Shown here: in pieces, positions 30,172 through 31,573 of the stretch
Layout: the number at the start of each line of letters is the position of its first letter
Position numbering within the stretch: the first letter of the stretch is position 1
Notes under the pieces: generated by a model
Databases searched by the model: none
What the model saw: the letters and a program-made list of their open reading frames with translations, nothing else
What the model was told of the DNA's origin: nothing
Translations under genes and position numbers: made by a program
Source: Escherichia phage kaaroe
Direction: 5' to 3' (one strand)
Sequence record: MN850574.1
DNA: 64,000 bases

Positions 30172-30197
30172 AGCCTCCCTTCGGGGAGGCTTTTTAT
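30172..30197 (+). terminator. intrinsic terminator after gene 32 (UUCG-loop hairpin)
   Basis: AGCCTCCC-TTCG-GGGAGGCT followed by TTTTTATT. Confidence 0.7.
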
Positions 30198-30223
30198 TGC
30201 CTAAAATTTTATGAAAAAAGATG

Positions 30224-30251
30224 TTGACATGTTGGCGAGGTAATGTATAAT
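30224..30251 (+). promoter_or_regulatory. sigma70-type early promoter
   Basis: TTGACA, 16-nt spacer, TATAAT, then CATCGAAACAACGGAGGATAAAAATATG leader. Confidence 0.55.
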
Positions 30252-30281
30252 GAACTCATCGAAACAACGGAGGATAAAAAT

Positions 30282-31526
30282 ATGAAAACTTACTTTGCAA
30301 AAGATGTTTGTTATATTATCAAAAATAAATCCGTCTCAAAAACACCAGAACATTACGAGAATCGCTCAATAAATTATGCATTGTCTCATGGTTTCGTTTA
30401 TTTGGGGTTTATTGGAGAATATTCTGGATGCCAAACCTTGTCAAATTTTGAATGTAAAAGACATGGAACGTTTGCGGTCAGAGTACAAAATCTAAATCAT
30501 GCTAAACATGGTTGCCCAAAATGTGCCATTGAGGATAGGGCAGAAAAAAGAAAATTGAGTATAGAAAAGATTTATAACGACATAAATCGAATCTGTGACG
30601 AGAACGGAACTATAGAATTAACAGAAATTAAAGGTGGGTATAAAACAACAAAAACACGAAATTTATTTTTTAAATGTAAATTGTGTAATGGCATGTTTAA
30701 TACATCACATGATCATTTAAAACGAGGTCAAGCATGTCCAAAATGTCGGTATAAAAAAATTTCTGTGTGTAATACTAGAAACCAACTTGATATTGAACTT
30801 GACATAAAAATAGAATGTAAAAAAAGAAAAACCGTTGAATTTGTAGAATTTGAAAATGGATATTGCAGATACAAGTCAAAAAATTTAATAATGAGATGTT
30901 TGCGTGGACACGGAAATTACACAACAACAGCAAACGACTTTTTTAAGGGACGTGGTTGTCCTACATGCGGAGGAACGAAAAGACTAACAGAAAAACAAGC
31001 ATCTGAACAAATGATAAAAGAGTGTGAAATTAGAGGTTATGATTTTTTGGGATTTTTTAATGGGTATAAAAAGTCGGCAGAACCTAATGCAAAATTAAAA
31101 TGTAAACGCAGTGGGGTAGTTTTTTATACATCACACAACAATTTTATGAAAGGACAAAACTGTAAGTGTTGCTCTGAATTTGGATATAGAACAACGAAAT
31201 CTGGTGTTTTCTATGTACAGAAACTGTTAGAAAATAATATTTTTTGTGGTGTTAAATTTGGTGTAACCAATAGAACAACAAAAGAACGAATTGGAGGTCA
31301 ATCTCGCCTTTCCAAATTCGACCACGAGATCTTTTATGAACTTACTTTACAAGACGGTCAAAAGATCTTAGACTTAGAGAACAAGATCAAGGAAGCGATG
31401 AAAGGTAAAACTTCCTATATCTCAAAAGAAGATATGCCGGATGGCTACACAGAAACAGTAGCGCCGTCAGAATTGAGCACTATCATGTATATCGTAAAAA
31501 CTTTTGAAAAAGAGTTGACAGCGTAA
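30282..31526 (+). CDS. zinc-ribbon repeat protein with C-terminal GIY-YIG/T5orf172-like region (possible homing endonuclease-like element)
   Basis: Four repeats of ~45 aa ending G(C)PxC; C-terminal GVFYVQKL...FCGVKFGVTNRTTKERIG; AT-rich codon usage. Confidence 0.4.
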   Translation: MKTYFAKDVCYIIKNKSVSKTPEHYENRSINYALSHGFVYLGFIGEYSGCQTLSNFECKRHGTFAVRVQNLNHAKHGCPKCAIEDRAEKRKLSIEKIYNDINRICDENGTIELTEIKGGYKTTKTRNLFFKCKLCNGMFNTSHDHLKRGQACPKCRYKKISVCNTRNQLDIELDIKIECKKRKTVEFVEFENGYCRYKSKNLIMRCLRGHGNYTTTANDFFKGRGCPTCGGTKRLTEKQASEQMIKECEIRGYDFLGFFNGYKKSAEPNAKLKCKRSGVVFYTSHNNFMKGQNCKCCSEFGYRTTKSGVFYVQKLLENNIFCGVKFGVTNRTTKERIGGQSRLSKFDHEIFYELTLQDGQKILDLENKIKEAMKGKTSYISKEDMPDGYTETVAPSELSTIMYIVKTFEKELTA

Positions 31527-31542
31527 CGCAATAGTGTATAAT
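31515..31542 (+). promoter_or_regulatory. sigma70-type early promoter
   Basis: TTGACA, 16-nt spacer, TATAAT, then CATATCGAAACAAAGAGAGGATTATATTATG. Confidence 0.5.
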
Positions 31543-31573
31543 GTACATATCGAAACAAAGAGAGGATTATATT

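What the first reader, a model, noticed from the sequence alone, without database searches (positions are those of the whole stretch)
30224..31526. AT-rich zinc-ribbon repeat gene with GIY-YIG-like tail inserted between gene 32 and frd
The ORF has its own promoter and four tandem ~45-aa repeats each ending in G(C)PxC, then GVFYVQKL...FCGVKFGVTN...R resembling a T5orf172/GIY-YIG-type nuclease core. Its AT-rich codon usage contrasts with the flanking core genes, suggesting a mobile homing-endonuclease-like insertion downstream of the gene 32 terminator.
Basis: inference. Interest (0 to 1): 0.55.

Follow-up and report, generated by a model that had tools for sequence, protein, structure and literature searches.

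The report
Mobile zinc-finger nuclease gene cassette
This is a selfish "homing endonuclease"-type gene, with four zinc-finger DNA-reading modules joined to a GIY-YIG/T5orf172-like cutting domain, sitting in a swap-prone slot just after gene 32 of an RB49-like coliphage; it is a new member of a gene family already described in other phages, so it is real but fairly ordinary.

Summary
The ORF is real. Its likely start is ATG 30282, not 30243 or 30224, giving 30282..31526 on the + strand (414 aa). It has a perfect sigma-70 promoter and lies downstream of the gene 32 terminator. It is AT-rich: GC 32.7% and GC3 25%, against 40% for the window.

It carries four repeats, but their period is 68-74 aa, not ~45. 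They are CapR-homology zinc modules (PF21817; DUF4379/DUF723-like).

The C-terminal ~110 aa gets no direct Pfam hit. Three results still place it in the T5orf172/MUG113 branch of GIY-YIG nucleases. Close relatives found with this domain alone hit those models in the same region. The AlphaFold model (pLDDT 93.5) best matches the GIY-YIG domains of SLX1 and I-TevI. The Tyr, Arg and Glu residues are invariant.

In about 58 Krischvirus genomes the slot is empty, holds an unrelated 109-aa ORF, holds a decayed copy, or holds one of at least four divergent full-length alleles. The same allele (98.5% nt) sits in phage phiS with divergent flanks. The exchange borders fall in promoter/RBS repeats that bracket the ORF.

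This is a free-standing T5orf172-type homing-endonuclease cassette, a new member of a known kind (Barth 2023; RB49p240; T5p137). Cleavage and homing are inferred, not shown.

The parts
30172..30191 (+). Gene 32 intrinsic terminator hairpin (8-bp stem, 6 G-C pairs, then a T run). It is the stem-loop half of a PeSL-like terminator-plus-promoter element.
   Evidence: terminator scan; centroid fold keeps only this hairpin; invariant in relatives.
30195..30281 (+). Upstream copy of the direct repeat that brackets the cassette: AT-rich upstream region, -35, -10, and 5'UTR ATCGAAACAA..GGAGG.
   Evidence: D5 plus D1, 24 + 52 nt at 71-75% identity to 31488-31558. TATAAT-N6-ATCGAAACAA occurs only at these two places in 64 kb (0 expected).
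30224..30251 (+). Sigma-70 consensus early promoter of the nuclease gene (TTGACA, 16 nt, TATAAT).
   Evidence: The equivalent site is annotated as a promoter in GEC-3S.
30282..31526 (+). Coding sequence, 414 aa plus stop. GGAGG ribosome-binding site at 30270-30274.
   Evidence: phiS annotates a 414-aa orthologue of the same length, 97.8% identical in protein sequence. PHROG 681 'endonuclease', E = 6.7e-73.
30360..30557 (+). CapR-type zinc module 1 (aa 27-92). Ligands C58-x2-H61 ... C78-P-K-C81.
   Evidence: CapR E = 0.011 alone; custom HMM i-E 5e-17.
30558..30782 (+). CapR-type zinc module 2 (aa 93-167). Ligands C132-x2-C135 ... C152-P-K-C155.
   Evidence: (CapR E = 5e-5; DUF4379 E = 1.8e-3).
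30783..30986 (+). CapR-type zinc module 3 (aa 168-235). Ligands C206-x3-H210 ... C226-P-T-C229.
   Evidence: (CapR E = 5.3e-5).
30987..31199 (+). CapR-type zinc module 4 (aa 236-306). Ligands C274 ... C294-K-C296-C297; the second ligand of the first knuckle is not obvious.
   Evidence: CapR E = 1.3e-3; i-E 7e-18.
31200..31523 (+). C-terminal GIY-YIG-fold, T5orf172/MUG113-related nuclease-like domain (aa 307-414). Invariant residues: Y311, K325, G327, R336, E366, G388, E391.
31488..31573 (+). Downstream copy of the bracketing direct repeat. It begins inside the last 13 codons of the gene and supplies the promoter and 5'UTR of the next gene.
31515..31542 (+). Sigma-70 consensus promoter for the downstream 109-aa ORF. 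Its -35 TTGACA is the Leu-Thr codons of the ...EKELTA* tail.
   Evidence: The equivalent site is annotated inside the endonuclease gene of GEC-3S.

Best explanation
The gene encodes a free-standing, early-expressed, site-specific DNA endonuclease of the homing type. An N-terminal array of four CapR-type zinc modules (about 72 aa each) would read a long DNA target. A C-terminal GIY-YIG-fold domain of the T5orf172/MUG113 branch would cut nearby.

The gene occupies a cassette slot between gene 32 and a conserved 109-aa ORF upstream of frd, in a Krischvirus (RB49-like T4-type coliphage, probably phage kaaroe). The slot is bracketed by two copies of the same early promoter plus 5'UTR.

Proposed mechanism: in a mixed infection the enzyme cuts the gene 32-frd region of a co-infecting relative that lacks this allele. 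Recombinational repair from the nuclease-carrying genome, with crossovers in the conserved promoter/RBS repeats, then copies the ORF in.

Shown here: the domain composition, the fold, conservation of catalytic-type residues, the expression signals, presence/absence and allele polymorphism at the locus, and ORF-precise exchange between different genetic backgrounds.

Inferred: zinc binding, DNA cleavage, the target site, and that cleavage rather than plain recombination drives the spread.
For: Domains:
- CapR PF21817 scores 46.4 bits against a cut-off of 24.2, in 4 stretches; DUF4379 scores 24.6 against 24.5.
- The custom repeat HMM finds exactly 4 modules here. Relatives have 1-9, and alleles at this locus have 2-6.

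Nuclease domain:
- phmmer with the C-terminal 122 aa alone finds 515 representatives at E <= 1e-3. In the 150 listed, the match lies at the C-terminal end.
- Of 104 relatives scanned, 41 hit MUG113, 15 hit T5orf172 and 2 hit GIY-YIG.
- These hits fall in the homologous segment and above Pfam's gathering cut-offs. For example, P0065 is 45% identical to this domain (E = 6e-19) and scores 22.9 bits on T5orf172 (cut-off 20) at residues 520-588.
- The AlphaFold2 model has pLDDT 93.5 with a beta-beta-alpha-beta-alpha core.
- BFVD matches include proteins labelled GIY-YIG, T5 Orf172 and homing endonuclease, and the Odn-like protein of Mt1B1_P17.
- Y311, K325, G327, R336, E366 and E391 are invariant across 46-105 relatives.
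- Nuclease activity of a T5orf172 domain, abolished by mutating its conserved glutamate, is published for ICP1 Odn (PMC8263062).
- The same architecture (repeated CapR/DUF723/DUF4379 zinc fingers plus T5orf172) is described as a homing-endonuclease family (PMC10448857).

Mobility:
- Census of locus states, with examples.
- A decayed copy in MIZ4: an N-terminal remnant MNTRFAKD..., stop codons, then a 182-aa tail ORF.
- The allele is 98.5% nt identical to phiS, but the promoter regions are 86% and 81% identical and the next ORF 70.7%.
- A second case: the Skers and GEC-3S alleles are 98.6% identical, with the next ORF at 77%.
- Four allele classes sit in near-isogenic flanks: gene 32 at 97-99% and, leaving out phiS and Skers, orf239 at 98-99%.
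- The left border is exact. The window matches MIZ6 from the -35 hexamer to GGAGGAT, and matches phiS from there on.
- The gene is AT-rich relative to its neighbours.
Against: - No Pfam, NCBIfam or PDB-sequence model detects a nuclease domain directly in this protein.
- The second Tyr of the GIY-YIG motif is replaced: K-F-G stands in place of Y-I-G. The helix-1 His/Tyr position appears to hold Gln.
- The exchange borders are sharp at the promoter repeats, with no visible co-conversion tract in the flanks. This fits plain homologous recombination between repeats as well as it fits homing.
- No target site could be identified.
- Only one other genome (phiS) carries this exact allele.
Confidence: 0.72

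Rival explanations
1. Passenger of a PeSL-type promoter cassette. The ORF moves among Krischviruses only by homologous recombination between the duplicated early-promoter/5'UTR repeats, as proposed for ORFan cassettes of RB49 and phi1. The nuclease would serve another purpose, such as degrading or excluding competing phage genomes, or it would contribute nothing to the gene's own spread.
For: - The slot is bracketed by a direct repeat of about 75-85 nt at 71-75% identity, found only at these two places in the window.
- The unrelated 109-aa ORF cassette of MIZ6 and E26 is bracketed by the same promoters.
- The empty site in PHB13 is a single hybrid promoter, as a repeat-to-repeat crossover would leave.
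- The exchange borders lie exactly in the RBS and -35 motifs, without co-converted flanks.
- PeSL-mediated shuffling and mini-circles were shown in RB49 and phi1 (PMC2839356).
Against: - The catalytic-type residues are invariant, and the C-terminal domain is far more conserved (75-85% aa) than the DNA-binding array among alleles.
- The locus shows the classic homing-endonuclease cycle: invasion, diversification, decay (MIZ4) and loss.
- The downstream repeat copy has no significant stem-loop (z = -0.76), so it is not a full PeSL.
- The two mechanisms are not mutually exclusive.
Confidence: 0.17
2. Domesticated derivative. The protein is a defence or regulatory factor rather than a selfish element. 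It could be an Odn-like nuclease aimed at a satellite or a rival phage. Or it could be a CapR-like DNA-binding repressor of an early promoter, with the nuclease-like domain inactive or used only for binding.
For: - CapR itself is a repressor derived from such endonucleases (PMC8096241).
- Odn is a domesticated T5orf172 nuclease (PMC8263062).
- Structural matches include the Odn-like protein of Mt1B1_P17.
- The gene is expressed from a strong early promoter.
Against: - The gene is dispensable: the slot is empty or holds an unrelated ORF in about half of the close relatives.
- There is no RepA_N or other captured domain, only the standard zinc-module array.
- Catalytic-type residues are retained, which argues against a purely binding role.
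- Decayed copies exist.
Confidence: 0.08
3. Not a nuclease at all. The C-terminal domain would be a GIY-YIG-like fold with no catalytic function (T5orf172 was first labelled a DNA-binding domain), and the protein would be only a multi-zinc-finger DNA binder.
For: - There is no direct profile hit to any nuclease family.
- The second motif Tyr and the helix-1 His are replaced.
Against: - Tyr, Arg and two Glu residues are invariant at GIY-YIG-type positions across more than 100 relatives.
- A related T5orf172 domain, which by the paper's own account lacks the helix-1 His/Tyr, is an active nuclease (PMC8263062).
Confidence: 0.03

Closest known systems
T5orf172 homing endonucleases with repeated CapR/DUF723/DUF4379 zinc-finger domains (ICP1 gp165, gp174 and others; Barth et al. 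2023, PMC10448857)
   Same: - N-terminal array of related zinc modules, with a variable copy number.
- C-terminal T5orf172-type GIY-YIG domain.
- Free-standing genes next to essential replication or nucleotide-metabolism genes.
- They mark the boundaries of genetic exchange and show domain shuffling.
   Different: - The C-terminal domain here falls below Pfam's T5orf172 and MUG113 thresholds.
- The paper's supplementary files hold no mention of RB49, Phi1, JSE, GEC-3S or Krischvirus, and the paper notes that T4 has no T5orf172 genes.
- The host lineage here is a T4-type coliphage.
- The cassette is bracketed by duplicated promoters.
RB49p240 (RefSeq 'endonuclease') and its alleles in Krischvirus, and T5p137 of phage T5 (annotated 'similar to RB49p240')
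   Same: - RB49p240 sits in the same slot and has the same architecture. Its C-terminal domain is 75-78% identical, with nucleotide-level homology in the 3' quarter.
- T5p137 has 2 modules plus the same C-terminal domain (29% identity over 232 aa, E = 3e-30).
   Different: - Identity to the RB49p240-type alleles is only 38-46% overall. The zinc-module array is unalignable at nucleotide level and differs in module number: 4 here, 5 in RB49, 6 in JEP8, 2 in T5p137.
- None of these proteins has been studied experimentally, as far as the searched literature shows.
ICP1 Odn (gp88), origin-directed nuclease (PMC8263062)
   Same: - T5orf172-type nuclease domain at the C-terminus.
- Conserved Arg and Glu.
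- Lacks the usual helix-1 His/Tyr.
   Different: - Odn uses a captured RepA_N DNA-binding domain and targets a satellite's replication origin.
- This protein has the standard zinc-module array and behaves like a mobile cassette.
T4 Seg proteins, free-standing GIY-YIG homing endonucleases such as SegG next to gene 32 (established T4 literature, recalled from my own knowledge, not checked here)
   Same: - Free-standing gene with its own promoter, inserted between conserved genes beside gene 32.
- GIY-YIG superfamily nuclease.
- Presence/absence polymorphism among relatives.
   Different: - Seg proteins carry a canonical N-terminal GIY-YIG domain and C-terminal helix-turn-helix or NUMOD-type DNA-binding regions.
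- Here the nuclease is C-terminal, of the T5orf172 branch, and DNA binding is by zinc-module repeats.
PLE CapR (capsid-operon repressor; PMC8096241)
   Same: The zinc-finger DNA-binding module (CxxC...CxC type) is homologous to the four modules here.
   Different: CapR has no nuclease domain and acts as a transcriptional repressor in a phage satellite.
PeSL cassettes of RB49 and phi1 (Arbiol et al. 2010, PMC2839356)
   Same: - Consensus sigma-70 early promoter with an AT-rich upstream region and an adjacent stem-loop, flanking a variable ORF in the same phage genus.
- Indels coincide with these elements.
   Different: - The downstream element has a promoter but no significant stem-loop.
- The cargo is a nuclease gene rather than an ORFan.
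- Mini-circle formation was not tested.

Membership tests
CapR homology domain (Pfam PF21817) | Whole-protein score above Pfam's gathering cut-off | tested here: met
   46.4 bits against 24.2, E = 4.5e-12, 4 stretches. Each module alone best-hits CapR but scores 16-24 bits.
CapR homology domain (Pfam PF21817) | Two pairs of zinc ligands about 20-26 residues apart (CxxC ... CxC/CxxC) | tested here: inconclusive
   The second knuckle is intact in all four modules (CPKC, CPKC, CPTC, CKCC). The first knuckle is CxxH, CxxC, CxxxH, or a single Cys. The family consensus is C..GH ... C..C. Zinc binding was not measured.
DUF4379 treble-clef zinc finger (PF14311) | Score above the gathering cut-off | tested here: met
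   24.6 bits against 24.5, so borderline. Many relatives hit it strongly.
T5orf172 (PF10544) / MUG113 (PF13455) | Direct profile match of the C-terminal domain | tested here: not met
   No hit at E <= 1 for the whole protein, or at E <= 10 for the domain alone. The Skers allele gives only MUG113 at E = 0.096. T5p137 also gives no hit.
T5orf172 (PF10544) / MUG113 (PF13455) | Homology by transitive search: relatives of this domain match the family in the same region | tested here: met
   41 of 104 relatives hit MUG113 and 15 of 104 hit T5orf172. P0065 and P0070 score above the gathering cut-offs inside the segment that aligns to this domain.
GIY-YIG nuclease superfamily | Three-stranded sheet with flanking helices (beta-beta-alpha-beta-alpha core) | tested here: met
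GIY-YIG nuclease superfamily | Catalytic residues: Tyr of 'GIY', Tyr of 'YIG', Arg in helix 1, metal-binding Glu | tested here: inconclusive
   Y311, R336 and E366 (in 'LENKIK', compare I-TevI 'ERENFW') are invariant. The 'YIG' Tyr is replaced by K325-F-G327 and the helix-1 His by Q340. Positional equivalence is my inference from motif order and spacing, not from a superposition.
GIY-YIG nuclease superfamily | Direct match to PF01541 or to a solved GIY-YIG sequence | tested here: not met
   (a profile of 51 domain sequences against PDB sequences finds nothing).
Homing endonuclease gene (functional class) | Presence/absence polymorphism at one locus among close relatives, with degenerate copies | tested here: met
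   census: about 6 empty, about 22 with the 109-aa ORF, 4 truncated, about 24 full-length. MIZ4 remnant. Empty site in PHB13.
Homing endonuclease gene (functional class) | Site-specific cleavage of the allele lacking the gene, and nuclease-dependent gene conversion | not testable with these tools
   No target could be inferred. Only two genomes carry this allele.
PeSL mobile regulatory cassette (Arbiol 2010) | Consensus sigma-70 early promoter plus stable stem-loop on both sides of a variable ORF | tested here: inconclusive
   The upstream element has both a hairpin (30172-30191) and a promoter. The downstream element has a perfect promoter but no significant hairpin.

The most novel reading that the evidence does not exclude
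The slot after gene 32 may be a promoter-bracketed exchange site. There, nuclease alleles with different zinc-module arrays (2-6 modules), an unrelated small ORF and the empty state would replace one another by ORF-precise crossovers in the RBS and the -35 box. The nuclease gene carries, in its own last codons (...E-L-T = GAG TTG ACA), the replacement promoter for the downstream frd-td operon. If cleavage and promoter-repeat recombination cooperate, this would be a hybrid homing/PeSL mobility mechanism. The modular zinc array would then be a naturally re-assortable DNA-recognition code that sets which rival allele is attacked.
Probability: 0.25. Interest if true: 0.5.

Novelty: new member of a known kind. 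Interest (0 to 1): 0.3.

Why it matters
The finding extends the recently described family of T5orf172 homing endonucleases with zinc-finger arrays to RB49-like T4-type coliphages. It also shows that a whole subfamily (RB49p240, T5p137 and more than 500 representative clusters) escapes the Pfam models used to count such genes, so current censuses undercount them.

The locus is a clean natural experiment. Near-isogenic phages differ only by which allele, if any, fills the slot, and the exchange borders are exact to the ORF. This makes it a convenient system for two questions: whether T5orf172 enzymes really home, and how arrays of CapR modules specify their DNA targets.

For genome annotation, the practical outcome is modest. 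The "hypothetical protein" should be labelled a putative GIY-YIG/T5orf172-like homing endonuclease.

Tried and rejected
- Direct family assignment of the C-terminal domain failed. Pfam on the whole protein and on the domain alone, NCBIfam, phmmer against PDB sequences, and a 51-sequence profile against PDB sequences all found nothing.
- Foldseek of the full-length model against the PDB was uninformative. The model behaves as beads on a string (pTM 0.38), and the only hit at E < 1e-3 is a trypanosome mitoribosome assembly factor.
- No paralogue of the gene exists elsewhere in the 64-kb window.
- No Rfam family or tRNA is present in the window.
- The four modules are not repeated at nucleotide level. 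Only short matches at about 73% identity are found, so the duplication is old.
- The 109-aa ORF that replaces the gene in MIZ6 and E26 is not a duplicate of the downstream 109-aa ORF, and neither has a Pfam match.
- A stem-loop in the downstream promoter copy, needed for a full PeSL, is not supported.
- The supplementary tables of Barth 2023 do not list RB49, Phi1, JSE or GEC-3S.
- No paper mentions RB49p240 or T5p137.
- The ORF start at 30243 given by the ORF finder was rejected, because that ATG lies within the -10 hexamer.
- I considered inferring the target site from SNPs associated with presence of the allele. I dropped this because only two genomes carry it.
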